Below are positions 7,473 to 27,047 of a DNA stretch of 64,000 nucleotides, in pieces. Origin of the DNA: a virus. Position 1 is the stretch's first letter. Every line of letters begins with the position of its first letter. A program made the translations under genes and the position numbers. The stretch is from the IMG/VR virus record IMGVR_UViG_3300045988_181996. One strand, given 5' to 3'. The notes under the pieces are model-generated. The model had not been told where the DNA came from and did no database searches. It was given only the letters and a program-made list of their open reading frames with translations.

Positions 7473-7475
7473 AAT

Positions 7476-11547: not shown

Positions 11548-11814
11548 TTAAACCTTCAAATTAATTGATTCTAAAAATTCATAATCTTCTTTACTTAATT
11601 TAATTACTTCACCATTATCATTAACTAATGTCGCATTTTCATAAAAAGAATCATATTCTAATTTAAAAATTTGAGGTTTATATTTACTTATATTTTCATT
11701 TACATATTTATATTCTTTTGGAAGTTTATCAATTACAACTGCTACATAAAACATACTCAAATGTGTATATTTTATGATCCTATCATTAAATTTTTGAAAT
11801 TCTTTCTGCTTCAA
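11548..11814 (-). CDS. hypothetical 88-aa protein upstream of flotillin (possible short NfeD-like partner)
   Basis: Position immediately 5' of the SPFH gene. Weak similarity only. Confidence 0.35.
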   Translation of the reverse strand: MKQKEFQKFNDRIIKYTHLSMFYVAVVIDKLPKEYKYVNENISKYKPQIFKLEYDSFYENATLVNDNGEVIKLSKEDYEFLESINLKV

Positions 11815-11923
11815 CCCGTCTGATTTTGTCGTAAAAATGAATAATCATCATTACTGACTACTTTCATTTGATGTGACGATCCACAGACTTAACTTTCCGT
11901 ATAACCCACGGTAGTGACAATAT

Positions 11924-13800: not shown

Positions 13801-14388
13801 TTAAAATACTCGAACTCCCATTAATGAATCTTCAGTAAAATTACCTACTGCACGGGAGTCTTGACTTACATCTCTATTATCACCTAATACAAAATAATGT
13901 CCTTCTGGTACAATAGTATCAAAATTAACAGTTTTAAATAGATGAATATTATTTTCATCTAAATATTTTTCTTCATATTTTACATTATTTACATATAAAA
14001 CACCGTCTATTACTGTTACTCTATCTCCTGGTAACCCGATTACACGTTTAACAATGTTTTTACTCTCACCACCATCAACTAATCGTTCTTTAAATACTGC
14101 TATATCAAATCTATCCACTCGCTCTTTTTTTAATAACATGTACTCACCATCTTTTAATGTTGGTAACATTGACGGACCGTCTACTTTAACTAATGTAAAA
14201 TTTATTCTAAATAACATTACAATCATGATAATTACTAAAAATACTGTAACATCTTTAACAGGTGAATGTAATTTTTTATGGTTATATATACTAACTTCAC
14301 TTTCATCAACACCCATAGCTTCTGCTAATTCTTTATTACGCTTTTTTAAATATTCATCATCTTTTTTATATCTATCAAAAATACCCAA
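13801..14388 (-). CDS. lepB: type I signal peptidase (SipS/LepB family), 195 aa
   Basis: Boxes 'GPSMLPTL', 'KRVIGLPGDRV', 'YFVLGDNRDVSQDSR' with catalytic Ser/Lys context. Confidence 0.85.
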   Translation of the reverse strand: MGIFDRYKKDDEYLKKRNKELAEAMGVDESEVSIYNHKKLHSPVKDVTVFLVIIMIVMLFRINFTLVKVDGPSMLPTLKDGEYMLLKKERVDRFDIAVFKERLVDGGESKNIVKRVIGLPGDRVTVIDGVLYVNNVKYEEKYLDENNIHLFKTVNFDTIVPEGHYFVLGDNRDVSQDSRAVGNFTEDSLMGVRVF

Positions 14389-16644: not shown

Positions 16645-16962
16645 TTGTTACCCTTAGTTGTTCTCCCTAGTTGTTACTCTTAGTTGTTCTCCTTAGTTGT
16701 TACTCTTAGTTGTTCTCCTTAGTTGTTACCCTTAGTTGTTACCCTTAGTTGTTACCCTTAGTTGTTACCCTTAGTTGTTCTCCTTAGTTGTTCTACTTAG
16801 TTGTTCTCACTAGTTGTTCTCCCTAGTTGTTCTACTTAGTTGTTCTACTTAGTTGTTCTCACTAATTGTTCTCCCTAGTTGTTCTCACTAGTTGTTCTAC
16901 TTAGTTGTTCTCACTAGTTGTTCTCCCTAGTTGTTCTCACTAGTTGTTACCCTTAGTTGTTA
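16645..16962. repeat. iteron array 1: ~24 tandem copies of a 13-bp unit YTAGTTGTTMYYC
   Basis: Read directly from the sequence. No unique spacers between units, so not CRISPR. Confidence 0.9.
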
Positions 16963-17071
16963 CAAAAAATACAAAAAAGATACAAAAATACAACACAAAA
17001 TCATTGACATTTATACATCACAATGATACACTAGATATATCGATAAAAAAAAGAAAGGAATAGACTAGAGC

Positions 17072-18073
17072 ATGGAAAAGAAAAAATCAGTTAAATTATC
17101 TGATATTTCAATAGATCAAATTAAAAGAAGTAAAAAAATAAAGAAAACTCCTTTAATTGAAGAAAAAATAAATGAAGAAACTCAAACACCTACTACTCAA
17201 GCTGACAATGAAGAACTTGGTAAAGCTGGAGAATATGTACCAGTCGAAGACGATGCTATAATTGAGATGTTTGAAACTAACAATGAAGAAAGTTTTGAAG
17301 AAATAGAACATGCAGTTATAGAAGAAACTAAAACACCTAACAATGAAATAGTTAACCCTATGGAAAGTATAGAACTTATTGATGATATTACAGATGAAGA
17401 TATTAATGCAACAAATCAACCTAAAAATAGTTTCTTTAAAGAAATAATTAATGAGTTCAAATCATATTCATTAACATTTAAACTATTTACGTTTCTTTCA
17501 ATCATTCTTGTTGGAATATTAATTGCAATTAGTGTTTATTTTTACAAGAAAACACCGAAAAATGTTGAACAACAAGAACAACCTAAACAAGAAGTTAAAC
17601 AAGAAGTTAAACAAGAAGAAAAAACAGAAGATGATAGTAAATCAGAAAAAGAAAAACTTCAATCCAAACTTGAAGATAGTGTTAAATCAATTAACACACC
17701 TACTAAAGTTGCAACAGAAGATTTATTTGGTGGATATATATTAGGTAGTACTACTTATTATCCTGATGACCCACAAAAACTTTATATTGATTTCACTATC
17801 AAACCACCTAAAGAAAAACAACCACAAGCTGATGATGAAACTGCTCTGAAAATTCTAAAAACTTTAAAATCGACTTTACCTAAAATAAACGAAACTATTG
17901 AAGTTAAAGATAAATCTAAAGTTACTATGGAAATTTATAAACAAAAATCAGAATATCAAACTATTCTATTATATGACGGTAAACCATTTGCTTATGTTTC
18001 AACTGATAAAGACCTTGTTTCAACTAACCATGTTACTGGTGAATATGTCTCAAAAGTTGCTAAAGACGCTTAA
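17072..18073 (+). CDS. membrane-anchored protein, acidic N-terminus, single TM, extracytoplasmic C-domain, 333 aa
   Basis: TM 'FTFLSIILVGILIAISVYFY'. KQEVKQE repeats. Confidence 0.5.
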   Translation: MEKKKSVKLSDISIDQIKRSKKIKKTPLIEEKINEETQTPTTQADNEELGKAGEYVPVEDDAIIEMFETNNEESFEEIEHAVIEETKTPNNEIVNPMESIELIDDITDEDINATNQPKNSFFKEIINEFKSYSLTFKLFTFLSIILVGILIAISVYFYKKTPKNVEQQEQPKQEVKQEVKQEEKTEDDSKSEKEKLQSKLEDSVKSINTPTKVATEDLFGGYILGSTTYYPDDPQKLYIDFTIKPPKEKQPQADDETALKILKTLKSTLPKINETIEVKDKSKVTMEIYKQKSEYQTILLYDGKPFAYVSTDKDLVSTNHVTGEYVSKVAKDA

Positions 18074-18210
18074 TAATAAAAAGTACTACAAACACACTTG
18101 TAGTACTCTTTTTTTATATTAAAAAAGTCTCCAGAAAAACTCGTCTGTATTAATTTTTCGTGGTATCTTAGTCTCCACAAAAACTTATCCGAAGAATTTT
18201 ATCAAATTTT

Positions 18211-18320
18211 TTACCTGTGGTATTTTATATAAAAAATTACTACCTACGGTATTTTATTTAAAAATTTATTACATCACGTATTTTATTCAAAAAAATAACC
18301 TACAAATGTATTTTCATCAT
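18211..18320. repeat. four ~26-bp direct repeats ACCTRYGGTATTTTATWTAAAAAWTT
   Basis: Seen in sequence, in the non-coding 18.1-19.25 kb region. Confidence 0.7.
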
Positions 18321-18429
18321 ACACCCCTAACATACTTTGTATTTTTATTAGCAAGTCTATTACTTTGTATTATCATCATAATAATAAATTATACTAGTAT
18401 AATTATATTACTCATCAGGATATACTAAC

Positions 18430-18542
18430 TCGCTTAGAATATTATCATTCTAGGATTTACTTAATCAGTATTTAATATTATTATTCTAGGTAATATCTAA
18501 CTATCTAAGAATATTACCCTTCTAGGTAATACTTAATTAGGA
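18430..18542. repeat. three ~35-bp direct repeats (..AATATTAYYCTTCTAGGTAATACTTAA..)
   Basis: Seen in sequence. Confidence 0.7.
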
Positions 18543-19155
18543 AAAAATATACTGTACTATTTTTTACTCAAATCGCAAGGAATGTTGCTTCCTTATTTCA
18601 ATTTCTAATTAAGTAGAAATTATAAAACCCTATTAAAAACTTGAAGCGGCAAGATCATCAAAAAAAAAATAAAAAGATAAAAACATTTAAAAAAAATAAT
18701 GACTTAATATATCAAAAAATCTCCTGTTATTAAAATTTACCGATGCAATTTTATTAATTCGATCTTTTAAGTGAACCCCTACCTTTAAAATTCTCACAAC
18801 TAAATTTACCTTTAAAATAACTAATTAAAACATCATCAAAATAACATTTTAGCAAACTCCCTCACAAAAAAAATACAACTAAATAAAAAAATTCCATTCA
18901 AATAAAATTTTTAAGACGCATTTAAACACCCTTCTCGCTTTGATGAAATACTTTCTGGTATAATTGGTCCAAAAAATATTTTACGACGATTCTAGGGGTA
19001 TAGAAATAGCTCCTAGAGGGTGATTCATTATTTTTGTATATAGTATATTTCGGATAATGACATTTTAACAAAATTATTTAATAAACGTCTACATTTGTCG
19101 TTATCTATTTAACCTTCTTATCCTAATTGGTAATAATATATTTATCGCTGCAAAA

Positions 19156-19210
19156 CGTAATTCTACGAATTACTTAAAAATAAGTTAGGCATAGCCTAAA
19201 ACCCTTTAAC
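19156..19210 (+). promoter_or_regulatory. hairpin motif copy 1: CGTAATTCTACGAATTAC + TTAGGCATAGCCTAA + ACCCTTTAAC upstream of the 19252 gene
   Basis: Two palindromes plus a conserved ACCCTTTAA box. Recurs five times before plus-strand genes. Confidence 0.6.
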
Positions 19211-19251
19211 TCGAAAATATTAATTAAATAAATGTTTGGAGGGTTACCGCT

Positions 19252-19659
19252 ATGAGTTCTACTAAACCATGGATTAAATTCACGCAAGATTATAATAAAG
19301 GTAAATATTCTTACTACAAAAAATCTTATAAAAACCACGACTACTACGTTGTAATTAACCACTTATTCGCACTATGTGGTTATGTCGAAGACACTCTATC
19401 AAGACCTCAAGAACGTTATTTCTTTGATCCATATGAATACGACTTAGATGTTCACGGTGGTGTTACTTATAATGGTGAAGCTTATTTCAATAAAAAAGAT
19501 AAACGCTTATTTATCGGATTTGATTGTGCTCACGCTTGTGATAACGTACCTAAACTATCTTACATTGGTGAAAATCTACCATGGCGAAATGAAAAATATG
19601 TTGAACGTCAATGTAGAAAACTTATTAATCAACTAATAAAATTAAAAGGAGAGCTTTAA
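19252..19659 (+). CDS. hypothetical protein 135 aa (conserved His/Cys/Asp cluster 'HGGVTY..GFDCAHACD')
   Basis: GGAGGG RBS. First gene of the plus-strand cluster. Confidence 0.55.
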   Translation: MSSTKPWIKFTQDYNKGKYSYYKKSYKNHDYYVVINHLFALCGYVEDTLSRPQERYFFDPYEYDLDVHGGVTYNGEAYFNKKDKRLFIGFDCAHACDNVPKLSYIGENLPWRNEKYVERQCRKLINQLIKLKGEL

Positions 19660-19660
19660 T

Positions 19661-19846
19661 ATGACTACTACATACTACTTTATTCAACACCCTACTGAAA
19701 ACCTTTATCGTGAAGACTATACTCTATTTACTTCAATTGATAAATTAAAAAAAGCTAATTCAATTGAAGAAGACTCGAAAATATTCTCAGTTGAAATTAA
19801 TAACAAATATCAAATTATTGGTACTCCTACTGAAATAACTATTTAA
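19661..19846 (+). CDS. hypothetical 61 aa
   Basis: AAAGGAGAG RBS. Translationally coupled to the preceding gene. Confidence 0.45.
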   Translation: MTTTYYFIQHPTENLYREDYTLFTSIDKLKKANSIEEDSKIFSVEINNKYQIIGTPTEITI

Positions 19847-19860
19847 AAGGAGATTTAATC

Positions 19861-20115
19861 ATGAAAACATTTATGGACATAATTATCTACTTACTTGGTT
19901 CAATTATTATTCTTTTTGTGTTTGGATTCCCTTTATTTGTTGCTGCACACTACGGCTCACTAAAAGAAAAAATTAAAAAAATCAATGAAGAAAGTAAAAA
20001 ACTTGATGACGAAATCGCTAAAATTGATTCTTTCACTCGCTCTATTAAAGGTGCTACAAACACTGACTATATCAAGGAACAACAAAAAATGCATTTCCCT
20101 GATAAATTTAATTAA
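19861..20115 (+). CDS. small membrane protein 84 aa
   Basis: AAAGGAGA RBS. TM 'IIIYLLGSIIILFVFGFPLFVAA'. Confidence 0.5.
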   Translation: MKTFMDIIIYLLGSIIILFVFGFPLFVAAHYGSLKEKIKKINEESKKLDDEIAKIDSFTRSIKGATNTDYIKEQQKMHFPDKFN

Positions 20116-20138
20116 AATTAAAAAAAGGAGATTTTATT

Positions 20139-20246
20139 ATGCTTGAATTTATTAAAGCACTCGCTGGAGGTTTTATGTTACTCTTACTAATATTCATGGG
20201 TGGTTATGCCGCTGGTGGATTCTGGGAAGATAACGATAAAAAATAA
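20139..20246 (+). CDS. 35-aa hydrophobic peptide (MLEFIKALAGGFMLLLLIFMGGYAAGGFWEDNDKK)
   Basis: AAAAGGAGA RBS 8 nt upstream. Not in the ORF track. Confidence 0.3.
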   Translation: MLEFIKALAGGFMLLLLIFMGGYAAGGFWEDNDKK

Positions 20247-20404
20247 AAAATTATGAAAAAATTATTAAACATTTACTTAAAACGCTTTGTTAAATACTTT
20301 GTTGGAAGAATTCTTTACATAACTAACTTTAAGTTATTAGCTAAATTCTTCCAACTATTTAATATCTACAAACTATTTAAAATTCTACACAGGAGGTAAT
20401 TAAT

Positions 20405-20869
20405 ATGAGTAATACAATCAAACTATCTACAACTCACCAAACTCACGATTTCCTTAGTCGTTTGAATGAACAACAAAAACTTGAACATGAAATCTATCAG
20501 TTTGTTAGATCTATTGAAATGAAAAACCATACATTAGATAGATTCCGTTCAAAGTTTATTGAGCTTTATTGGAATAATAATTTCTACACACCTAATAAAA
20601 ATTCTTACTTGAAATTATTTGTTACTCTTATTAATCACCTTCAAAATGCTGAACTTGAGTGTCATATTAAAGACATTTCGTGGTTTAGTGATGTTATTAA
20701 ACAAGCTAAACTTAACCCTATTAATTACTCATCTAATTTCGATGAATATTATGAATTTACTTTCCTTGACTATAATAAAAGTTTATTCAACGAATCAACT
20801 AAAAACATCACATTAAAACTAACTTTAAGAGTTATTGATAACCACCTATATGGAATTATTTTACAATAA
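20405..20869 (+). CDS. hypothetical protein 154 aa
   Basis: CAGGAGG RBS. Confidence 0.55.
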   Translation: MSNTIKLSTTHQTHDFLSRLNEQQKLEHEIYQFVRSIEMKNHTLDRFRSKFIELYWNNNFYTPNKNSYLKLFVTLINHLQNAELECHIKDISWFSDVIKQAKLNPINYSSNFDEYYEFTFLDYNKSLFNESTKNITLKLTLRVIDNHLYGIILQ

Positions 20870-20888
20870 ACTAAAGGAGAAATAACAA

Positions 20889-21068
20889 TGGCTAAATTTA
20901 TTAAAATTGATGACAAAATTATTAATGTTGACCATATAGCTTTCATTGTTGAAAGTGAAAACATATATGATGAAAAATACACGAAATTTTTCTTAACTCA
21001 TGGTTTCGTTAATACTAAATTAAAATTAGATGAAGTCTATAAATTAATCGAAGATTGTTCTAGTTAAT
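20889..21068 (+). CDS. hypothetical 59 aa (MAKFIKIDDKIINVDHIAF...)
   Basis: AAAGGAGA RBS. Hand-translated. Below the ORF-track cut-off. Confidence 0.4.
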
Positions 21069-21096
21069 ACTTAACTCTTAATCTTTCGCTTATAAT

Positions 21097-21151
21097 CGTA
21101 ATTCTACGAATTACTCAAAAACCAATTAGGCTTCGCCTAATACCCCTTAAC
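21097..21151 (+). promoter_or_regulatory. hairpin motif copy 2: CGTAATTCTACGAATTAC + TTAGGCTTCGCCTAA + TACCCCTTAAC
   Basis: Near-identical to copy 1. Confidence 0.6.
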
Positions 21152-21187
21152 TTTTGAAATTTATTTTATTAATTGGAGGTTTTATAC

Positions 21188-21700
21188 ATGACTACTAAAT
21201 ACTTTATTGACGGTTCTTTCCAAACTATTAATGATCACGAAATCTGCGGATTTGCTTGTGCTGTTATAAACCCTGACGGTTCTATCGAAGAACTTAAAGG
21301 TGCTAAAGAATTCGAAAACCATTCTAATAACATCACTAGTGAATTACAAGCTTGTTACGTTGCTTTATATCACGCTATTACTAATAATATTAAAGATATC
21401 GAAATCTATCACGACTTACAAGGTACTAGTGCTTGGGCTAACGGTACTTGGAAAGCTAAAAAAGATGAAACTAAAAAATATGCTCAATACGTTAACGCTA
21501 TGAAACAACAATACGATTTAAATATCAAATTCATTAAAGTTGCTGGTCACTCTGGTGTTAAATACAATGATTTAGCTGACTCTTTAGCTGACCAAGCTGT
21601 AAAAGAATATGCTATGAAAAACAACATCTTACCAACTTTTGAATTTAACGAAGCTGATGAAGTTGAACAACCTATAGCTATGTTCAACCCATTAGCTTAA
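21188..21700 (+). CDS. RNase H (RNase HI-like fold), ~170 aa
   Basis: DEDD catalytic set aligned to E. coli RnhA: 'YFIDGS', 'SELQACYVAL', 'IYHDLQ', 'VAGHSGVKYNDLADSLA'. GGAGG RBS 8 nt before the 21188 ATG (the ORF track start at 21173 is less likely). Confidence 0.8.
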   Translation: MTTKYFIDGSFQTINDHEICGFACAVINPDGSIEELKGAKEFENHSNNITSELQACYVALYHAITNNIKDIEIYHDLQGTSAWANGTWKAKKDETKKYAQYVNAMKQQYDLNIKFIKVAGHSGVKYNDLADSLADQAVKEYAMKNNILPTFEFNEADEVEQPIAMFNPLA

Positions 21701-21718
21701 TATTAATAATTTATATCA

Positions 21719-21744
21719 AGGGGTTCTTATGAACCCCTTATTTT
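21719..21744 (+). terminator. rho-independent terminator GGGGTTCttatGAACCCC + T-run
   Basis: 7-bp GC stem followed by TTATTTT. Confidence 0.7.
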
Positions 21745-21754
21745 GGAGTTTATT

Positions 21755-22156
21755 ATGTACATCATACTACCTTTTAACGCAAATCATAACTCACACGCTG
21801 TAGAGGTTTATTCTAAAATTAAGGATATTCCTTTCCCAACCAACGTACCTGTACGTTGTTATCGTCTTAATAAAAAAATCTATAATGAGTTAGAGCTTAA
21901 TTATTACAATATCCACAAGGATTACTCTCACTCAGTTACTCTACCACGTTTTCAAATTGCTTATGAAGTACCTATCTATAAACACGAACTTCATAAAAAG
22001 TTTAACGTTTCTAAAACTGAACTTATCGCTATTTACGAAAATCACGTAAAAGAACTTAATTATCTATCAGATAACACTATTCTCTTACTTTGGAAACTTA
22101 AAATGCATCCTGAAATAATCGCTAATAGTAAATTAGCTCATTTGCTTAAATATTAA
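21755..22156 (+). CDS. hypothetical 133 aa
   Basis: GGAG 6 nt before the ATG at 21755 (the ORF track uses a TTG at 21743). Confidence 0.5.
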   Translation: MYIILPFNANHNSHAVEVYSKIKDIPFPTNVPVRCYRLNKKIYNELELNYYNIHKDYSHSVTLPRFQIAYEVPIYKHELHKKFNVSKTELIAIYENHVKELNYLSDNTILLLWKLKMHPEIIANSKLAHLLKY

Positions 22157-22166
22157 GGAGTTTATT

Positions 22167-22553
22167 ATGAATTACATTCTTAGAAATTACCCAAATAACA
22201 ATATTCGTAAACTACTTTGTCCTTATCAACATTCAAAACTTAAAAAAATAAACTATACTTACTACAACCGTTTACGTGAGTTTATTACTTCTAAAGATTT
22301 TAAATGTATATTTTATCTATCTATTAAAAACAACGAAATCATCGAACTTGATGTTGTAACTCACCACCAAGCACAAGTTCTAAACTTGTTTAATAACATT
22401 AAACAGGATTTAAAACCTATTAAAAAAGGTACTTGGTACGTTACTAAACTTGAATATGGTTATTTAGTTTTCCCTAAACTAAACATACCTTTCAACAACA
22501 ACCAATGCTTCTATTTTGAATGTAACTCATTCTACGATTCACTTATATTCTAG
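22167..22553 (+). CDS. hypothetical 128 aa
   Basis: AAGGAG RBS. Confidence 0.5.
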   Translation: MNYILRNYPNNNIRKLLCPYQHSKLKKINYTYYNRLREFITSKDFKCIFYLSIKNNEIIELDVVTHHQAQVLNLFNNIKQDLKPIKKGTWYVTKLEYGYLVFPKLNIPFNNNQCFYFECNSFYDSLIF

Positions 22554-22567
22554 GAGGTTTTCTAACC

Positions 22568-22939
22568 ATGAAATCTACTATCGCAAATCTATTACTTCAA
22601 ATTAATTCTATCAATGAAAAAATTAAAGTCATTGAAAAAGAGTTACAATCAAATATCAAAAATAACATTATTGATACTTTCCTTACAGATTTTATTGGTT
22701 TTAAATCATTCCAACCAAATTACGATTCTAAAATCTGTACGTTCAAATTAATTGATTTAAACACTCTTGATGTCGGTACGATTCTACCTACCGAAACTCT
22801 AGGGCTTTTCAATAATAACACTCTATTTTTTAACGTTTATACTGAAAATATTAATTTCTCACTTAATCTACATACTCTTTGGATTTATAAAAAAGATAAC
22901 GTTGTTACTGAAATTTTCTACACTAAACTTATAAACTAA
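22568..22939 (+). CDS. hypothetical 123 aa
   Basis: AGGAGG RBS. Confidence 0.5.
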   Translation: MKSTIANLLLQINSINEKIKVIEKELQSNIKNNIIDTFLTDFIGFKSFQPNYDSKICTFKLIDLNTLDVGTILPTETLGLFNNNTLFFNVYTENINFSLNLHTLWIYKKDNVVTEIFYTKLIN

Positions 22940-22949
22940 AAGTAACCAT

Positions 22950-23020
22950 TTAACTTGCACCCGCTAATACATACGTATTAGCTGGAAAACCAGTTAAGTT
23001 GCACCTAATACCCTTTAATC
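22950..23020 (+). promoter_or_regulatory. hairpin motif copy 3: TTAACTTGCACC ... GCTAATACATACGTATTAGC ... GTTAAGTTGCACC + TAATACCCTTTAATC
   Basis: 20-bp perfect palindrome flanked by 12-bp direct repeats, then the ACCCTTTAA box. Confidence 0.55.
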
Positions 23021-23057
23021 TATGAAAAAAAATTAAAACAAATTAAGGAGTCATATC

Positions 23058-23201
23058 ATGAAAATTAAAGTTAAACCATCTTATAAATACAAAATGTCTA
23101 ATGATGAATTACAAGATTACCTTAAAATGAAGAAGTCTGGTGCTTCTAAAACTAAAAATGGTCGTGCTTATTCACGTAAAAATTATAAAATCAATTATTA
23201 A
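23058..23201 (+). CDS. 47-aa basic peptide (MKIKVKPSYKYKMSNDELQDYLKMKKSGASKTKNGRAYSRKNYKINY)
   Basis: AAGGAG RBS. Hand-translated. Confidence 0.35.
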   Translation: MKIKVKPSYKYKMSNDELQDYLKMKKSGASKTKNGRAYSRKNYKINY

Positions 23202-23243
23202 AAAAAAAATATTAATTGATCTAAGTATTACATACTTATCATT

Positions 23244-23272
23244 TAGTTAGGTCACCCTAACACCCTTTAATC
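23244..23272 (+). promoter_or_regulatory. hairpin motif copy 4: TTAGTTAGGTCACCCTAA + CACCCTTTAATC
   Basis: Motif family, upstream of ssb1. Confidence 0.5.
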
Positions 23273-23310
23273 TAAAAAAAATAATAATCAAATAAAGAGA
23301 GGTTCTATTT

Positions 23311-23742
23311 ATGTTAAACAAATTTTTATTCACTGGAAGACTTACTGATAACGCTACACTTAAAAACACTTCTAAAAATGTCTTAGTTACTACTTTTTCT
23401 ATCGCTAATAACGAAAAAGTTAAAGATAAAGATATCACTACTTTCCTACCTGTTACGTTCTTCCCAAAAAGTACTAAACAAATGGAATTGCTTGCTAAAG
23501 GTAATTTAGTTACTGTTGAAGGACATTTTGCTACTAGTCAATTTACTGACCAATCTGGAAAAAATCAAGTTCGTACTGAATTTATCGTTGATAAATTTGA
23601 CTTACTTGCTCGTGTTAAATCTGTTGAACCTAAAAATGAATTCGTTAGTGCTGACAGTTACCAAGACGATTATGTTCCTGTTATGCCTGAATACATGGAA
23701 GATGATGCGTCTGTTGAATTATTCAACCCTATCGAAGATTAA
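23311..23742 (+). CDS. ssb: single-stranded DNA-binding protein (paralog 1), 143 aa, acidic C-tail ...DDASVELFNPIED
   Basis: Aligns with B. subtilis SSB: 'MLNKFLFTGRLTDNATLK..TTFSIANNE' and 'LAKGNLVTVEGHFATSQFTDQSGKNQVRTEFIVDKFDLL'. Confidence 0.85.
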   Translation: MLNKFLFTGRLTDNATLKNTSKNVLVTTFSIANNEKVKDKDITTFLPVTFFPKSTKQMELLAKGNLVTVEGHFATSQFTDQSGKNQVRTEFIVDKFDLLARVKSVEPKNEFVSADSYQDDYVPVMPEYMEDDASVELFNPIED

Positions 23743-23796
23743 TTTCTTTGACACTTATTCTTATATATGATATACTAGTTAAGTATAAAAGTCTAT

Positions 23797-23826
23797 GACG
23801 GGTGTTCTTTTAACACCCGTTATCTT
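23797..23826 (+). terminator. rho-independent terminator ACGGGTGTTcttttAACACCCGT + TATCTT
   Basis: 9-bp stem. Weak U-tract. Confidence 0.55.
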
Positions 23827-23857
23827 ATGTTGTTAGTTATAAAAGGAGGATATTCAT

Positions 23858-24097
23858 ATGTCAATTTTTAATGCAATTCAAAAGTTATTCACTAAATCTT
23901 TTGCTTCTGATAAATCTCTTACACAGCTTTACAAAGAAGAAAAAGATGTTATGCGTTTACTTCATTCTCTACCTGAAAATGAACGCAAATTCATTGTTGA
24001 ACGTGTTATGAAAAATTATCCAGGTGATAAAAATTTCAATAAAACACTTTTTAACGAAACTACTAAAATTCTTAAAAAAGATAAAGAGTTGAGCTAA
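23858..24097 (+). CDS. hypothetical 79 aa
   Basis: AAAGGAGG RBS. Confidence 0.5.
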   Translation: MSIFNAIQKLFTKSFASDKSLTQLYKEEKDVMRLLHSLPENERKFIVERVMKNYPGDKNFNKTLFNETTKILKKDKELS

Positions 24098-24173
24098 TCA
24101 TGGCTACAGCTCTTTTTTATTTAATCACAATATTAATCTGTATGCAAGATTAAATTTATTTCAAGGAGCTATT

Positions 24174-24506
24174 ATGGATAAATTCATTATTACTAACACC
24201 AATGACTTTAACTACCCTTATCTCATTACTCTTACTCATATAAAAAATAACAATGTTATTGATACACTAAAAGATTTAACTCTACCTAATCTAGCTAATA
24301 AAAAAATTATTATCGATACTCACCTAGTCTCAGATGATCATTCTAAAAGATTTTTATCTACTGTTGTTACTTACAACGAATCTATTAATACTGATAATTT
24401 AAATTATACTCTAGTTACTTATAATGACCCGTTAATGAAACTTGCCACTAATATTATTAATGATATTAAGTTGAAATTCTTTGTTTCATTTATTGATAAA
24501 TTATAA
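24174..24506 (+). CDS. hypothetical 110 aa
   Basis: CAAGGAG RBS. Confidence 0.45.
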   Translation: MDKFIITNTNDFNYPYLITLTHIKNNNVIDTLKDLTLPNLANKKIIIDTHLVSDDHSKRFLSTVVTYNESINTDNLNYTLVTYNDPLMKLATNIINDIKLKFFVSFIDKL

Positions 24507-24619
24507 CAAATTTTTCCTACCCTGAAAAAATCCCTTGTGTTTAATCCTTGACCTGAATACGTCTTTAAACTGTTCAATTTTTATTACGTGACAATTATAC
24601 TAATTGTCATAAAAACCAA

Positions 24620-24645
24620 TTAGGCTTTGCCTAACACCCTTTTAA
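24620..24645 (+). promoter_or_regulatory. hairpin motif copy 5: TTAGGCTTTGCCTAA + CACCCTTTTA, preceded by TTGACCTGAATACGTC box at 24549
   Basis: Motif family. TTGACCTGARTAYGTC is also present at 25611. Confidence 0.55.
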
Positions 24646-24685
24646 TTATGAAAAAATAAAAAAAATAAAGTGAGGTACAAAACTT

Positions 24686-25105
24686 ATGATTAAATTTAAT
24701 ACAATTACAACTACTGGTAACTTAGCAAGCAATATCCGTTTCTACGGAAAAGATAATTCAGCCGCTGAAATCGTTGTTTATGATTCAACTCGTAAAGAAA
24801 CACCTGTTCGTCATACGGCTTTCCTTAAAGACGCAGCACTTAAATCTATCGCTCCTAAATTAGTTAAAGGTGCTTTCGTTGCGATTGAAGGACATTTAGT
24901 TCCTAGACCGTCTACTAAAGAAAATCCTGATAATAACACTGATATTATCGTTGACTCTATCCGTTTCTTAAACAACCCTCTTAAAAATCGTAAACCAGCA
25001 GAAATTCCTGCTCTTAAAGTTGAAGACGACTTTGAAGTAGTTCAAGAAACTCCTGAAGTTCTTGATGAAAAACCTAAAAGAGGTCGTAAAAAAGCTACTA
25101 AATAA
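24686..25105 (+). CDS. ssb: SSB-like OB-fold protein (paralog 2), 139 aa, basic C-tail
   Basis: 'TGNLASN..' and 'LVKGAFVAIEGHLVPR' align to SSB strands. Lacks the acidic tip. Confidence 0.65.
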   Translation: MIKFNTITTTGNLASNIRFYGKDNSAAEIVVYDSTRKETPVRHTAFLKDAALKSIAPKLVKGAFVAIEGHLVPRPSTKENPDNNTDIIVDSIRFLNNPLKNRKPAEIPALKVEDDFEVVQETPEVLDEKPKRGRKKATK

Positions 25106-25286
25106 TAAATAATCTCTTAACAGTACTTAGACTGAGCTCTTACGCTTAGTCTTTGTACTGCACTTTGCTTGTGTGGGTTACTGTGATTTGCACAAGTTGG
25201 TTCAACTCCAACTACAAGCCAATCCTCCTCCTAATGAGGACTATTAACCAAATTAACTTTAACATTAAAAAAAGGTGGACAATTAT

Positions 25287-25598
25287 ATGATTATTAATCA
25301 ATTAACTGAAAATAACCATAAAAATAATATAGCGACTAATCTAAGACAAGTCATTTCTCATAAAAATAACGAATATCACATCGTCTTTGATTATCGTATC
25401 GGCAACCAAATTAAAAGTGCCAAGCTTACTTCTAATTTCTCTGATGAGGGTATCAAATACCTTTTACCTGATAACCCTACTCGTGAAGATATTCAGGCTC
25501 AAGCTAATGCTCTTGCCAATAAATACATTAAACAAGCTATATTATGCAAATCTCAAAAAGTTAAAAGTAATTACCATATAATTTTACCACCTAAATAA
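25287..25598 (+). CDS. hypothetical 103 aa
   Basis: AAAGGTGG RBS 7 nt before the ATG at 25287 (the ORF track GTG start at 25275 is unlikely). Confidence 0.45.
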   Translation: MIINQLTENNHKNNIATNLRQVISHKNNEYHIVFDYRIGNQIKSAKLTSNFSDEGIKYLLPDNPTREDIQAQANALANKYIKQAILCKSQKVKSNYHIILPPK

Positions 25599-25687
25599 TA
25601 AAAAAAAAACATTGACCTGAGTATGTCATTAAAAGACTTAAAATATAAAATAATAAATTAAAATATTAAGAAAAGAGGTATATATTT

Positions 25688-25999
25688 ATGACAATTTTAT
25701 TAACAGGACACATCTCAAGAAAAGAAACAGCAGTTGCTAAAACAGGGAAAGTTGCTTTCAACCAAGTTGCTTGTACTAACATCTATACTAAAAAAGACGG
25801 TACTCAAGTTGAAGATACTCAATTCATTAACTTCGCTATCCCTTCTAAATTCGAAAAACTTTGGAAACACCTTGATAAAGGTCAATTAGTTACTGTTGTT
25901 GCTCACATCGAACAATGGAAATCTACTAATGAAAAAGGTGAAAATCGCTATACTCAAATGGTTGTAGCTGACTCTATCGGGTTAGGCTCTGCTAAATAA
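25688..25999 (+). CDS. ssb: SSB-like OB-fold protein (paralog 3), 103 aa, no C-terminal tail
   Basis: 'TQFINFAIPSKFEKLWKHLDKGQLVTVVAHIEQ' vs SSB '[33 protein letters not shown]'. Confidence 0.7.
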   Translation: MTILLTGHISRKETAVAKTGKVAFNQVACTNIYTKKDGTQVEDTQFINFAIPSKFEKLWKHLDKGQLVTVVAHIEQWKSTNEKGENRYTQMVVADSIGLGSAK

Positions 26000-26005
26000 T
26001 TTATT

Positions 26006-26036
26006 AAAGACCACTATAAGTGGTCTTTTTTATTTT
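26006..26036 (+). terminator. rho-independent terminator AGACCACtataaGTGGTCT + T6
   Basis: 7-bp stem plus T-run directly after ssb3. Confidence 0.75.
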
Positions 26037-26233
26037 ACGGAAATCCTACGTATTTCCTACGGTGGTGACATGGCTTCGCATTAATGTCACGCTTAAAAAA
26101 AACAGTTACCCTTATCTTATTTATTTAATGGTGTAACTGTTTTTTTTATTTGTACAATTAACTCCGTTAATTGTTTTATTAAATTGCAATAGCCTACGCC
26201 TATTGCTATTATTTAAAATAATTATTCAAATTT

Positions 26234-26472
26234 GTTACCCTTAGTTGTTCTCCCTAGTTGTTACCACCAGTTGTTACCCTTAGTTGTTACCACTAGTTGT
26301 TACCACTAGTTGTTCTCCCTAGTTGTTCCCCCTAATTGTCACTCTTAGTTGTTCTCCCTAGTTGTTCCCCCTAATTGTTACTACTAGTTGTTACTACTAG
26401 TTGTTACCCTTAGTTGTTACCACTAGTTGTTACTACTAGTTGTTACCCTTAGTTGTTACCACTAGTTGTTAC
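26234..26472. repeat. iteron array 2: ~18 tandem copies of the same 13-bp YTAGTTGTTMYYC unit as array 1
   Basis: Seen in sequence. Same orientation as array 1, 9.3 kb away. Confidence 0.9.
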
Positions 26473-26564
26473 TTCACTTTGCTTTACCTATTAAAAAACT
26501 ATATTTGATTAAAAATATTTCGATCTCGATACCAAAATATACTTTATTATTAACATTAACTATA

Positions 26565-26690
26565 TCTCTTATATAAATCAATTATATTAATCTCTTATAT
26601 AAACACATTATATAAACACCTTATATAAAAACCTTATATAATCACTATATAAACACCTTATATTAACACCTTATATTAATCAAATTCATA
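26565..26690. repeat. second iteron family: ~9 copies of ~12-bp (C)ACCTTATATAAA(C) preceded by an AT-rich stretch
   Basis: Seen in sequence. Confidence 0.8.
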
Positions 26691-26824
26691 AACACCTTTA
26701 AAAAAAACGCAATTCCTACGTAATTGCTTATATTGGTTCGTGGCTTCGCATTAACTCACTTCCTGATTCATTACTTGAATCAGTCTTCGGTCAAACTCGT
26801 CTCAAACTCCTTTGACATAAGGAA

Positions 26825-27047
26825 CTCCCCCCCCTTTTTTGTTAATAATTATATGAAATTTATTTTGTTGAAAAGTATTAGTTGAGTGTTAGTTGAAATT
26901 ATTTGAAAAAATATTATATCGGGAAATTATATAGATGATTTCTAAAAATAATTTATGGGCAAATTTTATTTGAGGGAATTATTATATGAATATATTATGT
27001 CCATTATTTTTTATTCCCTCAATTTATTTTTTTAATAGGGGGGGAGT
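26825..27047. repeat. element bounded by inverted ACTC8 / G7AGT homopolymer repeats with an inner TTGAGGGAAT/ATTCCCTCAA inverted repeat
   Basis: C8 at 26827-26834 and G7 at 27038-27044, in ~27% GC DNA. Confidence 0.6.

What the first reader, a model, noticed from the sequence alone, without database searches (positions are those of the whole stretch)
19156..24645. Recurring hairpin motif upstream of leading-region-like genes (possible ssDNA promoters / common operator)
Five plus-strand genes or gene groups are preceded by a composite motif. Those with a preceding copy include the first gene, RNase H, ssb1 and ssb2. The motif has a perfect palindrome TTAGGC(TTC/ATA/TTT)GCCTAA, or the variant TTAGGTCACCCTAA, followed by an ACCCTTTAA box. 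Copies 1 and 2 add a second palindrome CGTAATTCTACGAATTAC. Copy 3 has a 20-bp palindrome GCTAATACATACGTATTAGC between 12-bp direct repeats. The cluster carries three ssb paralogs, an RNase H and many tiny genes. This fits the early-expressed leading region of a conjugative plasmid, where hairpin-forming Frpo-type promoters fire on the entering single strand. Alternatively the palindromes are operators for one of the RHH proteins.
Basis: partly seen in the sequence, partly recalled or inferred. Interest (0 to 1): 0.7.

Follow-up and report, generated by a model that had tools for sequence, protein, structure and literature searches.

The report
Hairpin start signals before plasmid establishment genes
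Five copies of a compact two-hairpin DNA signal sit just upstream of the ssb, RNase H and other early genes of an uncultured Gram-positive conjugative element. Their conservation pattern suggests that they work as folded single-stranded DNA, probably as start signals for RNA synthesis on the incoming strand, a kind of signal not yet described for Gram-positive plasmids.

Summary
Exactly five copies exist in 64 kb, all on the gene strand.

Each copy has this layout:
- hairpin A: 7-9 bp stem of variable sequence, conserved TAC/ATAC loop
- a 7-11 nt spacer
- hairpin B: TTAGG..CCTAA
- an invariant ACCC box, 46-51 nt before the start codon

The module is conserved at syntenic positions in about 15 related metagenomic loci, where a longer three-hairpin version also occurs. 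All 8 hairpin A pairs covary. The hairpin B half-sites are 4-7 nt apart, which rules out a rigid dimer operator. G·T wobbles fall on the template strand only, which argues against a sense RNA. No long Frpo-like stem with duplex -35/-10 forms.

TAC-loop hairpins also flank an invariant 12-mer at two origin-like sites just past the last ssb gene.

Best reading (about 0.4): a compact hairpin-defined initiation signal (promoter and/or primer site) on the single-stranded template strand. It is analogous to Frpo and to pLS20 EGeRS1 but belongs to neither. The transferred strand and the polymerase are unproven. Interest is moderately high.

The parts
19157..19209 (+). Composite c1: hairpin A GTAATTC-TAC-GAATTAC (19157-19173), 11-nt spacer, hairpin B TTAGGC-ATA-GCCTAA (19185-19199), box ACCCTTTAA (19201-19209). 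It lies 51 nt upstream of the ATG at 19252.
   Evidence: 79 bits, E=7e-15
21098..21150 (+). Composite c2: hairpin A GTAATTC-TAC-GAATTAC (21098-21114), hairpin B ATTAGGC-TTC-GCCTAAT (21125-21141), box ACCCCTTAA (21142-21150). It lies 46 nt upstream of the RNase H ATG at 21188.
   Evidence: 84 bits
22963..23018 (+). Composite c3: hairpin A GCTAATAC-ATAC-GTATTAGC (22963-22982), hairpin B TTAAGT-TGC-ACCTAA (22994-23008; one A.C on this strand, G.T on the other), box ACCCTTTAA (23010-23018). It lies 48 nt upstream of the 47-aa gene ATG at 23058.
   Evidence: 63 bits
23222..23270 (+). Composite c4: hairpin A TAAGTAT-TAC-ATACTTA (23222-23238), 7-nt spacer, hairpin B GTTAGG-TCAC-CCTAAC (23246-23261), box ACCCTTTAA (23262-23270). 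It lies 49 nt upstream of the ssb1 ATG at 23311.
   Evidence: found by model R1 although it was left out of the seed (E=4e-5)
24589..24645 (+). Composite c5: hairpin A TGACAATTA-TAC-TAATTGTCA (24589-24609), hairpin B TTAGGC-TTT-GCCTAA (24620-24634), box ACCCTTTTAA (24636-24645). It lies 50 nt upstream of the SSB-like gene ATG at 24686.
   Evidence: 73 bits
19252..21067 (+). Transcription unit served by c1: eight small genes. The first is a 135-aa protein of phrog_2164, with homologs in siphophage early regions.
21188..21700 (+). RNase H-like gene served by c2, followed by a terminator-like hairpin at about 21719-21740.
   Evidence: phrog_531, E=2e-27
23058..23201 (+). 47-aa basic protein gene served by c3. 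It is syntenic in all relatives and preceded there by the same motif.
23311..23742 (+). ssb1, served by c4.
   Evidence: PF00436, E=5e-17
24686..25105 (+). Divergent SSB-like (OB-core) gene, served by c5.
26039..26090 (+). Related 'site 1', just past the ssb3 terminator: a TAC-loop hairpin GGAAATcC-TAC-GtATTTCC (26039-26057) followed by hairpin GTGACAT-[GGCTTCGCATTA]-ATGTCAC (26065-26090). The 12-nt loop is invariant in all relatives while the stem changes (GTGGTAC/GTACCAC). The middle hairpin of the long composite version resembles this hairpin.
   Evidence: weak hit of model R1 (E about 0.9)
26709..26759 (+). Related 'site 2': a TAC-loop hairpin GCAATTcC-TAC-GtAATTGC (26709-26727) followed by the block GGTTCGTGGCTTCGCATTAACTCAC (26735-26759). 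The window and L021 share the whole block, and L032 shares it from GTTCG onwards.

Best explanation
The five composites are strand-specific, hairpin-defined initiation signals that act when the template (minus) strand of the ssb/RNase H cluster is single-stranded. The most plausible setting is the conjugatively transferred strand in a new recipient.

In this model the template strand folds into hairpin B' and hairpin A' (loop GTA), plus a middle hairpin in the longer version. SSB-coated DNA leaves these hairpins exposed. A polymerase, either host RNA polymerase or a primase, is positioned by them. It starts RNA synthesis at or just after the invariant A of ACCC, which lies 0-1 nt past the hairpin B stem. 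The product is an mRNA with a 46-51 nt A-rich leader and a strong SD. After processing by the element's own RNase H, it could also prime complementary-strand synthesis.

Shown here: the anatomy, exclusivity, synteny, covariation and strand polarity of the structure, the absence of a sigma-A promoter at most copies, and the kinship with the origin-like sites 1 and 2.

Inferred: that the minus strand is the transferred strand, that RNA synthesis starts at ACCC, and which polymerase is involved.
For: 1. Exactly five copies exist, all on one strand and all 46-51 nt upstream of a start codon with an SD.
2. The module is conserved at the same five syntenic positions in window-type relatives (L020, L026) and in L018-type relatives with RNase H about 50% identical (L018, L021, L027-L033). 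It is never found on the other strand.
3. Hairpin A: 8 of 8 pairs change on both sides and 93.8% of cells are paired, against 59.7% in shuffles (0 of 500 reach the observed value) and 21-41% when partners are slid. The TAC loop is invariant. This indicates a folded single strand.
4. Hairpin B: the TAGG/CCTA core is invariant, the inner and outer pairs show compensatory changes, and the half-site spacing is 4-7 nt. This does not fit a duplex dimer site.
5. Polarity: on the template strand, consensus folding gives 22 pairs in three hairpins at -21.4 kcal/mol. On the gene strand it gives 14 pairs at -12.7 kcal/mol. G.T wobbles occur at about 7 pair positions on the template strand and at none on the gene strand. 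With DNA parameters the template strand is more stable in 40 of 42 unique copies. A neighbouring structured element (25105-25270) shows the opposite, sense-RNA polarity, which serves as an internal control.
6. Canonical sigma-A promoters (TTGACA-17-TAnACT with TG) occur only at the units that lack the motif, at 17004 and 23748.
7. In relatives, a GACCT-box segment that begins with a -35-like TTGACC lies downstream of the motif. In c5 the same box lies upstream. The module is therefore positioned independently of that element and is not an obligatory mRNA leader.
8. TAC-loop hairpins recur at two origin-like sites with an invariant 12-mer, which points to a shared single-strand recognition system.
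9. A small hairpin with two compensatory pairs lies 5' of a 20-nt conserved block on the minus strand upstream of the relaxase operon. This fits a minus-strand nick.
10. The cluster encodes SSBs and an RNase H, a toolkit for ssDNA and RNA primers.
Against: - No polymerase or primase that would read such hairpins was found in the element. The host sigma-A holoenzyme is not known to use 6-9 bp hairpins without duplex -35/-10 elements.
- The transferred strand is not established. In pLS20, the only MobL plasmid with a mapped nick, the transferred strand is the non-template strand of the establishment genes (PMC8708921, PMC5313138).
- At sites 1 and 2 the hairpin lies 5' of the conserved core on the plus strand. 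If these sites are oriT, the plus strand is the one nicked.
- The wobble polarity rests on few independent events. A C<->T excess on the plus strand raises the null expectation to about 0.6, giving p of about 0.03-0.08.
- In the window-type copies the stems are perfect and both strands fold equally well.
- Whole-intergenic fold z-scores are modest, from -0.5 to -2.6.
- There are no expression data.
Confidence: 0.4

Rival explanations
1. The module is a duplex-DNA promoter or regulatory site. The box after ACCC would be a weak -10 (TATAAT, TATACT or TTTAAT in some copies). Hairpin B would be a site for an activator, repressor or alternative sigma factor. Hairpin A would be incidental, or would be extruded as a template-strand hairpin from supercoiled duplex DNA as in phage N4 early promoters.
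For: - The hexamer following ACCC is TATAAT, TATACT or TATAGT in several L018-type copies and TTTAAT in c3-c5.
- A conserved purine run (GAAAA) lies 9-11 nt after ACCC, where a start site would be.
- The motif occupies the place of the missing promoter.
- Hairpin B has an invariant stem sequence.
Against: - The -10-like hexamer shifts register by 1 nt between copies, and it lacks the key A2/T6 positions in c1, c2 and the TTTCAT copies.
- No -35 match exists at any spacing from 16 to 21 nt (read directly from the sequence).
- The half-site spacing of 4-7 nt does not fit a rigid dimer.
- Covariation in hairpin A within a single element has no explanation on duplex DNA.
- No sigma factor or T7/N4-like RNAP was detected.
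Confidence: 0.15
2. The module is a sense-RNA leader element. It could be a 5' stabiliser, an attenuator or a read-through insulator, like the orientation-dependent transcription block reported for pLS20 EGeRS1. In that case it acts on transcripts arriving from upstream.
For: - The position immediately upstream of the RBS of several establishment operons is the same as for EGeRS1, which blocks read-through only in its native orientation (PMC8708921).
- Four of the five copies follow an upstream gene closely.
- In c5 a -35-like hexamer (TTGACC, at the start of a GACCT-box) lies upstream of the module, so if that is a promoter the module would be transcribed.
Against: - The imperfect stem positions are A.C on the sense strand (7 positions) and never G.U. 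A neighbouring sense-type structure does use G.U.
- The middle hairpin does not form on the sense strand.
- In relatives, the GACCT-box segment with its -35-like TTGACC, a possible promoter, lies between the module and the gene it precedes.
- No U-tract directly follows either hairpin on the + strand, and the terminator scan does not flag them.
- There is no Rfam match.
Confidence: 0.15
3. The modules are priming-only single-strand initiation sites (ssi/sso-like). In this reading they are landing sites for a primase or RNAP that starts discontinuous complementary-strand synthesis on the entering strand, and they are not promoters. Site 1 would serve the last transcription unit. This works with either strand as the transferred strand.
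For: - There is one TAC-hairpin element per interval between transcription units, including site 1 after the last gene, where no gene follows.
- The element carries RNase H and SSB genes.
- Signals of this kind must be strand-specific, which matches the all-one-strand distribution.
- Precedents from established knowledge: the G4 and M13 complementary-strand origins, RSF1010 ssiA/ssiB, and ssoA.
Against: - The ACCC-to-ATG distance is tightly conserved at 46-53 nt in most copies, and the leader/SD is conserved as part of the module. This couples the module to the downstream gene.
- Five sites within 5.5 kb is dense for priming alone.
- The motif-bearing units lack any other promoter.
Confidence: 0.12
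4. The modules are targets of an HUH relaxase/Rep or a recombinase. They would be pseudo-oriT sites (branched hairpins 5' of a nick-like core ACCCTT) or attC-like recombination sites (GTTAGGY/RCCTAAC resemble integron core and inverse-core sites) that shuffle establishment-gene cassettes.
For: - The layout, with hairpins 5' of a short invariant core, is the general oriT layout. Branched hairpins next to a conserved core are described for Gram-positive oriTs (PMC4652767).
- The pLS20 nick abuts a hairpin and is followed by a C-rich run (PMC5313138).
- The composites are related to sites 1 and 2.
- Gene content between modules varies among relatives.
Against: - Same-strand oriT copies are expected to cause relaxase-mediated deletions (PMC4652767), yet five copies are stably syntenic.
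- Gene gains and losses between relatives occur inside units, not at module boundaries.
- No tyrosine recombinase or integrase was found in the window.
- The order of core-like and inverse-core-like sequences and the lack of L boxes do not match attC (read from the sequence).
- An ACCCTTATGC string upstream of the relaxase operon is not conserved in L038.
- The hairpin-5'-of-core layout is on the strand opposite to the one on which the hairpins fold best.
Confidence: 0.08
5. The modules encode cis-antisense RNAs, one per module, transcribed from the minus strand across each 5' UTR/RBS and ending at hairpin B' plus a U-run. These would act like FinP to silence the establishment genes in donors.
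For: - The structure is best on the minus strand.
- In c1, c2 and c5, hairpin B' is followed by a T-run and is flagged as terminator-like on the minus strand.
Against: - The T-run is absent in c4 and in all L018-type copies.
- No consistent minus-strand promoter lies downstream of the modules, and promoter-like hits there are at chance level.
- Hairpin A' would lie beyond the putative terminator.
Confidence: 0.05

Closest known systems
Frpo / ssi single-stranded DNA promoters of F and ColIb-P9 (Masai & Arai 1997; as summarised in PMC11541004)
   Same: Both are repeated, structured, strand-specific elements upstream of ssb-type leading-region genes of a conjugative element. Both are proposed to act on the entering single strand and to give both mRNA and primer RNA.
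   Different: Frpo is a long imperfect stem-loop that rebuilds duplex -35, -10 and UP elements for the sigma-70 holoenzyme. Here there are two or three separate 6-9 bp hairpins, no duplex hexamers, a conserved 3-nt loop and an invariant ACCC. There is no sequence similarity, and the host is Gram-positive.
EGeRS1 of the pLS20 family and pBS72 (PMC8708921)
   Same: Both are multi-copy sequences rich in inverted repeats, immediately upstream of the RBS of several establishment operons. Both occur in elements with MobL-type relaxases, show no recognisable sigma-A promoter, and have an unknown mechanism.
   Different: EGeRS1 is 420-750 bp and GC-rich (51% against 38% for the plasmid). It is transferred as the non-template strand. 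Here the module is 49-57 nt in the window (about 80-95 nt in the three-hairpin version of the relatives) with 30-37% GC. There is no sequence similarity, and the structure polarity favours the template strand.
Phage N4 virion-RNAP early promoters
   Same: Both have a template-strand DNA hairpin with a 5-7 bp stem and a 3-nt loop, with initiation a fixed short distance downstream. SSB is involved in N4. Here the A of ACCC lies 9-10 nt from the centre of the hairpin B loop.
   Different: N4 promoters need a dedicated T7-like RNAP and specific loop and stem bases. Here the hairpin B loop is variable, a second hairpin carries the conserved loop, and no such RNAP was found.
Filamentous-phage (M13/f1) and G4 complementary-strand origins; ssoA-type origins of rolling-circle plasmids
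   Same: Two or three adjacent hairpins on SSB-coated ssDNA direct host RNAP or primase to a defined start. They function in one orientation only.
   Different: Those origins occur once per replicon and are not coupled to genes. M13 and ssoA rely on promoter-like duplex hexamers in the stems. There is no sequence similarity.
Gram-positive oriT regions with branched hairpins next to a conserved core (pWBG749 family, PMC4652767; pLS20 oriT, PMC5313138)
   Same: Hairpins of variable sequence lie 5' of a short invariant core. TAC-loop hairpins here also flank the invariant 12-mer at sites 1 and 2.
   Different: Five same-strand copies are coupled to start codons. The core differs (ACCCTT against CTTATGCTCTT). 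The fold polarity favours the opposite strand.

Membership tests
Frpo/ssi ssDNA promoters | A long imperfect stem-loop that reconstitutes duplex -35 and -10 hexamers with about 17-bp spacing | tested here: not met
   ssDNA folds of the whole intergenic regions on both strands show only the local 6-9 bp hairpins, with z-scores from -0.5 to -2.6. Hairpin A stems vary in sequence.
Frpo/ssi ssDNA promoters | Sequence similarity to known Frpo/ssi elements of enterobacterial plasmids | tested here: not met
   Megablast of 17000-27000 against PLSDB, which holds F- and I-type plasmids, gave no match. Blastn of 26000-26830 also gave no match. The composites themselves were not searched in distant mode.
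Frpo/ssi ssDNA promoters | The transferred strand is the template strand of the downstream genes | tested here: inconclusive
   The structure polarity favours the template strand, and a hairpin lies 5' of a conserved block on the minus strand upstream of the relaxase. The nick itself is unmapped, and pLS20 is a counter-example.
Frpo/ssi ssDNA promoters | Located upstream of ssb or other establishment genes in a conjugative element | tested here: met
EGeRS1 (pLS20 family) | A conserved multi-copy sequence immediately upstream of the RBS of several establishment operons, containing inverted repeats | tested here: met
   Five copies lie 46-51 nt from a start codon, each with 2-3 hairpins.
EGeRS1 (pLS20 family) | Length 400-750 bp, markedly GC-rich, more than 60% identical to pLS20 EGeRS1 | tested here: not met
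   The module is 49-57 nt in the window and about 80-95 nt in the longer relatives' version, with GC of 0.30-0.37. Nothing in PLSDB, which includes Bacillus plasmids, matched it.
EGeRS1 (pLS20 family) | Blocks read-through in the native orientation and has no promoter activity as duplex DNA | not testable with these tools
   This needs reporter fusions.
N4-type hairpin promoters | A template-strand hairpin with a 5-7 bp stem and a 3-nt loop, a fixed short distance upstream of +1 | tested here: inconclusive
   The hairpin B geometry fits (6-7 bp stem, 3-4 nt loop, ACCC 0-1 nt after the stem). The start site is unknown.
N4-type hairpin promoters | A dedicated single-subunit RNAP encoded by or delivered with the element | tested here: not met
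   There are no RNAP domains or signatures in Pfam, NCBIfam or PHROGs, in PDB sequence searches of three large ORFs, or in motif scans. Many large ORFs remain unassigned, so absence is not proven.
Palindromic duplex operator of a dimeric (e.g. RHH) repressor (EGeRS2-type) | Fixed half-site sequence and spacing, shared by all sites of one element, next to a sigma-A promoter | tested here: not met
   Hairpin A arms differ between copies in one element. The hairpin B half-site spacing is 4-7 nt. There is no sigma-A promoter at c1-c4.
Integron attC sites | R''-L''...L'-R' imperfect hairpin (RYYYAAC ... GTTRRRY), cassette boundaries at the site, and an integron integrase | tested here: not met
   Only the 7-mers resemble attC (GTTAGGY/RCCTAAC). 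The order and L boxes are absent (sequence). Gene gains and losses fall inside units. No integrase was found.
Intrinsic terminators | A GC-rich hairpin directly followed by a U-tract on the transcribed strand | tested here: not met
   The hairpins are not flagged on the + strand. Three of the five are flagged on the - strand, but the T-run is missing in c4 and in all L018-type copies.
Known RNA families (Rfam 15) | A match to a curated covariance model | tested here: not met
   There are no hits at the composites at gathering thresholds or at E<=1.

The most novel reading that the evidence does not exclude
A new class of compact hairpin-defined single-stranded-DNA promoters in Gram-positive conjugative elements, about 50 nt long and about 80-95 nt in the three-hairpin version. 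Two or three small template-strand hairpins (one with an invariant GTA loop) would position a polymerase to start at a fixed ACCC. This would fire the ssb, RNase H and establishment genes directly from the entering strand. The same hairpin-recognition system would be reused at the element's origin-like sites, possibly through a still unrecognised element-encoded or co-transferred factor.
Probability: 0.3. Interest if true: 0.85.

Novelty: new variant of a known kind. Interest (0 to 1): 0.62.

Why it matters
It is an open question how Gram-positive conjugative elements switch on their establishment and anti-defence genes in the first minutes after entry. Frpo-type promoters have only been found in Proteobacteria, and a survey found none in its Gram-positive example (PMC11541004). 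The mechanism of the pLS20 EGeRS1 elements is unknown (PMC8708921).

This module is small, about 50 nt. It has clear covariation, an invariant loop and an invariant putative start site. It can therefore be tested directly with oligonucleotides, purified RNAP or primase, and SSB.

If it is an ssDNA promoter or primer signal, three things follow:
- It would define a new minimal architecture for strand-specific initiation.
- It would give a sequence and structure signature for finding leading regions in uncultured Firmicutes elements.
- It would offer a portable part that is active only on single-stranded DNA.

Tried and rejected
- Exact-pattern scan of 185,579 species genomes. It returned only chance hits and an unrelated repeat family in a 55-58% GC Eubacteriales MAG that lacks hairpin A and the TTTAA box. 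The viral contig scan found nothing.
- Megablast of the cluster against plasmids and phages, and blastn of the site 1-2 region against plasmids. No match.
- Distant homologs of the first gene. They lie in siphophage early regions without the motif. The RNase H relatives below 40% identity (L034-L037) also lack it. A GCCCG-C-TAC-G-CGGGC hairpin in L037 (56% GC) is judged coincidental.
- Alternative promoter types. Sigma-54, sigma-H, sigma-B, ECF (CCTAAC-N16-CGTA on the minus strand of c1-c3) and an SPO1-late-like CGTTAGG -35 were compared by eye. None keeps its spacing across the two module types. These are inferences, not tool tests.
- SD sequestration by the ACCC box. It works only in c1.
- RNase III-type processing sites. 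The stems are too short.
- A search for an element-encoded RNAP or primase. No DxDGD motif, no T7-like or AEP hits, and no PDB sequence relatives.
- The lead that ACCCTTATGC upstream of the relaxase operon is the true nick core related to the box. It is not conserved in L038.
- Similarity of the 12-mer region to the MOBQ oriT (TTCGCATAAGTGCGCC). This was recalled from memory only and is weak.
- A joint MAFFT alignment of the short and long module types. It was not usable.

Full report
CONTEXT

The window is AT-rich (27.6% GC) and is a Gram-positive conjugative element. On the minus strand it carries these genes:
- a VirD4/TraG-type coupling protein (41684-45466)
- a MobL-type relaxase (33191-34048)
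- a Toprim/Topo-IA protein (27251-29695)
- LPXTG/AgI-II adhesins
- a ClpB-like ATPase
- a DUF5906 (D5-like) NTPase

Its nearest annotated relatives are very distant. The coupling protein is at most 32% identical and the relaxase about 26% identical, to large lactococcal, staphylococcal and actinobacterial plasmids.

The finding lies in the only long plus-strand cluster (17-26 kb). That cluster encodes two Pfam-recognisable SSBs, a divergent SSB-like protein, an RNase H and many orphans. It converges on the end of the minus-strand conjugation genes.

THE OBSERVATION

All five copies are present as described. The hairpin B plus ACCC pattern occurs 4 times against 0.18 expected.

The stems are GTAATTC, GTAATTC, GCTAATAC, TAAGTAT and TGACAATTA. 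The window contains exactly five such TAC/ATAC-loop hairpins against 0.33 expected, and all five are adjacent to a hairpin B.

A covariance model built from the window-type copies without c4 finds c4 at E=4e-5. It finds nothing else in 64 kb on either strand.

The architecture is:
- hairpin A
- a 7-11 nt spacer, often AAAACCAR
- hairpin B: TTAGG, 4-5 intervening nt, CCTAA
- 0-1 nt
- ACCC(T/C)TT
- an A-rich leader with an SD
- ATG, with ACCC to ATG 46-51 nt

CONSERVATION ELSEWHERE

An exact-pattern scan of species genomes and viral contigs gave only chance or unrelated hits.

Protein-anchored retrieval worked better. The first gene and the RNase H gene gave about 15 related metagenomic loci.
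- Window-type relatives (L020, L026) keep all five copies, with loop substitutions.
- L018-type relatives (L018, L021, L027-L033; RNase H about 50% identical) carry the module at the same syntenic positions: first gene, RNase H, the small basic protein gene, ssb1 and the SSB-like gene.

The L018-type module is a longer version. It has hairpin A (for example GCAAATTC-TAC-GAATTTGC or GCAAAACC-TAC-GGTTTTGC), a variable middle hairpin, hairpin B (GTTAGGT-TAGC-ACCTAAC), then ACCC. The module is never found on the opposite strand.

IS IT A STRUCTURE?

For hairpin A, all 8 stem pairs show changes on both sides. 93.8% of cells are paired, against 59.7% in shuffles (0 of 500 reach the observed value) and 21-41% when partners are slid. 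The TAC loop is invariant and the closing C-G pair is present in 18 of 20 sequences.

For hairpin B, the TAGG/CCTA core is invariant. The inner pair switches between C-G and T-A, and the outer pair between T-A and C-G. The two halves are 4, 5, 6 or 7 nt apart.

A single dimeric duplex-binding protein cannot explain arms that differ between sites within one element, or variable half-site spacing. A folded single strand can.

WHICH STRAND?

Consensus folding of the long modules gives different results on the two strands:
- gene strand: 14 pairs at -12.7 kcal/mol, with no middle hairpin
- template strand: 22 pairs in three hairpins at -21.4 kcal/mol

On the template strand 97.9% of cells pair. 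G.T wobbles occupy about seven pair positions that would be A.C on the gene strand. The gene-strand alignments contain no G.U-type pairs at all.

With DNA energy parameters the template strand is more stable in 40 of 42 unique copies. The same polarity appears at c3 hairpin B and in the TAC-hairpins and the 12-mer hairpin beyond ssb3.

There are two caveats:
- Between close relatives, C<->T differences on the plus strand are 1.5-1.75 times as frequent as A<->G. Roughly 60% A.C is therefore expected by mutation alone, giving p of about 0.03-0.08 depending on how many events are independent.
- In the window itself the stems are perfect and fold equally well on both strands.

One control supports the inference. 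A separate conserved structured element at 25105-25270 (T-loop-like GTTGG-TTCAACT-CCAAC) has its wobbles as G.T on the gene strand, as a sense RNA would.

WHAT IT IS NOT

- Frpo. No long stem-loop with duplex -35/-10 elements forms, and there is no similarity to any PLSDB plasmid.
- An intrinsic terminator on the gene strand.
- A known RNA family.
- A sigma-A promoter. The hexamer after ACCC resembles a -10 in some copies, but it shifts register and lacks key bases in others, and no -35 exists.

Canonical sigma-A promoters occur in the cluster only at the two units that lack the module, at 17004 and 23748. In relatives a GACCT-box segment that starts with a -35-like TTGACC lies between the module and the gene. 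In c5 the same box lies upstream of the module. The module is therefore positioned independently of that element.

RELATION TO ORIGIN-LIKE SITES

Just past the ssb3 terminator, and again about 670 nt further on, a TAC-loop hairpin precedes the invariant 12-mer GGCTTCGCATTA. These are site 1 (26039-26090) and site 2 (26709-26759). At site 1 the 12-mer forms the loop of a hairpin whose stem changes between element types.

The middle hairpin of the long modules (GGTAC-GCCTTC..., GGCTC-GCTTCCACCT-GAGCC) resembles the site-1 hairpin. The gene-upstream modules and these sites therefore seem to be related, and presumably share a recognition factor.

Between the two sites lie an 18.5-copy 13-bp iteron array and a second 13-bp repeat. 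A 24-copy array of the same iteron lies at the other end of the cluster.

WHICH STRAND IS TRANSFERRED?

This is unresolved. Four points bear on it:
- Here the region upstream of the relaxase operon (35.0-35.5 kb) is a repeat-rich candidate oriT. It is conserved in L038, including a 20-nt identical block that is preceded on the minus strand by a small hairpin with two compensatory pairs. That layout, with the hairpin 5' of the core, is the general oriT layout (PMC4652767). It would make the minus strand the transferred strand, and the ssb cluster would enter as template 9-18 kb behind the nick.
- If sites 1 and 2 were the oriT instead, the same rule would point to the plus strand.
- The survey of leading regions found SSB and anti-defence genes placed so that they can be transcribed from the transferred strand (PMC11541004). 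That favours the minus strand here.

MECHANISM PROPOSED (about 0.4)

The modules are hairpin-defined initiation signals on the single-stranded template strand. Exposed hairpins on SSB-coated DNA position a polymerase. RNA synthesis starts at or near the invariant A of ACCC, next to hairpin B. The transcript carries the conserved A-rich leader and SD. RNase H could convert such transcripts into primers.

This is the Frpo concept with a different and much smaller architecture. Its geometric parallels are the N4 hairpin promoters and the M13/G4 complementary-strand origins. The position and multiplicity parallel EGeRS1.

Shown: anatomy, exclusivity, synteny, covariation, polarity and complementarity with sigma-A promoters. 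Inferred: the transferred strand, the start site and the enzyme. No candidate polymerase was found.

The rivals are listed separately with evidence and refutation tests: a duplex promoter or regulator, a sense-RNA leader or insulator, priming-only ssi sites, pseudo-oriT or attC-like sites, and antisense RNAs.

VERDICT

The feature is real, strongly non-random and evolutionarily conserved. It is best described as a new compact variant of the structured, strand-specific regulatory elements of conjugative leading regions. It is a member of neither Frpo nor EGeRS1. Its function is inferred, not shown. Interest 0.62.

Noticed in passing
window 16652-16961 and 26232-26472: Two long tandem arrays of the same 13-bp iteron (TAGTTGTTMYCCY; 24 and 18.5 copies), in the same orientation, bracket the whole ssb/RNase H cluster. 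Relatives have arrays of a diverged iteron in the same place after ssb3. The layout recalls the phage P4 ori/crr pair, which is served by a primase-helicase, and the element has a D5-like DUF5906 protein (36050-37900). They could equally be centromere arrays.
   Followed up: partly
window 26039-26090 (site 1) and 26709-26759 (site 2); L018 19336-19400; L021 9000-9060 and 9633-9740: The 12-mer GGCTTCGCATTA is invariant. At site 2 it sits inside the 25-nt block GGTTCGTGGCTTCGCATTAACTCAC, identical in the window and L021. It occurs twice per element on the same strand, and each copy is preceded by a TAC-loop hairpin. At site 1 it is the loop of a hairpin whose stems show compensatory changes. It is a candidate nick site, ssi or origin signal. 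Site 1 is followed by two more conserved hairpins (26097-26145 and 26154-26174).
   Followed up: partly
window 24550-24577 and 25614-25641; many copies in L018 17182-17501 and 18900-18981 and in L021 6892-7164: A second recurring motif, the 'GACCT-box' (GACCTRAGYAWGTCNNTAAACTRCT). It sometimes starts with a -35-like TTGACC. It occurs in tandem runs of 3-4 in the 5' UTR of the 79-aa gene in relatives and upstream of ssb3. It may be an operator array for a repressor (an EGeRS2-like system) or an RNA element.
   Followed up: no
window 25105-25270 (also L018 18422-18560 and L028 about 7470-7610): A conserved structured element between the SSB-like gene and the 107-aa gene. It has nested stems with compensatory changes and a T-loop-like arm (GTTGG-TTCAACT-CCAAC, against GTTCG-TTCAACT-CGAAC in relatives). 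Its wobbles are G.T on the gene strand, so it is probably a sense RNA. ARAGORN and Rfam find nothing.
   Followed up: partly
window 34950-35540 (minus strand); L038 1413-2224: The region upstream of the 264-aa plus relaxase operon is repeat-rich and is the conventional oriT candidate. It contains TGGACACTT x3, many TTGTCCA repeats and a duplicated CTTGGTACATCTAT. It also has a 20-nt block AAAAGCCTATTTGTCGTGG that is identical in L038 and is preceded by a small hairpin with compensatory changes.
   Followed up: partly
window 11803-11887 (-) next to 11924-13102 (-): A RAGATH-18 RNA (69 bits, E=9e-12) lies directly beside an IS605-type TnpB (OrfB_IS605 plus a Cas12f1-like TNB domain). This is probably its omega/guide RNA. 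A second transposase lies at 38-1276. L018 has a TnpB inserted right after its RNase H gene.
   Followed up: no
window 26569-26698, 18212-18294 and 18438-18550: Further tandem repeats around the cluster: 13-bp TTATATAAACACM x10 between the iterons and site 2, a 29-bp unit x3, and a 36-bp unit x3 (TTCTAGGTAATA core). The 29-bp and 36-bp repeats lie in the 1.1-kb gap upstream of c1.
   Followed up: no
window 48738-51074 (-), 9970-11463 (-), 13801-14388 (-): Unusual cargo for a conjugative element: a SecA-like DEAD/preprotein-binding protein (PF07517, E=1e-72), a flotillin/SPFH protein and a type I signal peptidase. Several very large ORFs have no detectable family (55461-59141, 1226 aa; 59141-61267, 708 aa).
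   Followed up: no
L021 1020-1345 and 5890-6200: A structured-looking segment of about 250 nt (GTGGCAGGTTGACAAACTCCAC ... CACGGTATTTCAATTCYGTGAGGATGTCAA) occurs twice in this relative's cluster, upstream of genes. It is absent from the window.
   Followed up: no
window 1-64000: GC skew is negative on the plus strand throughout the window, whichever way the genes point. This suggests one replication or mutational polarity across the whole 64 kb.
   Followed up: partly
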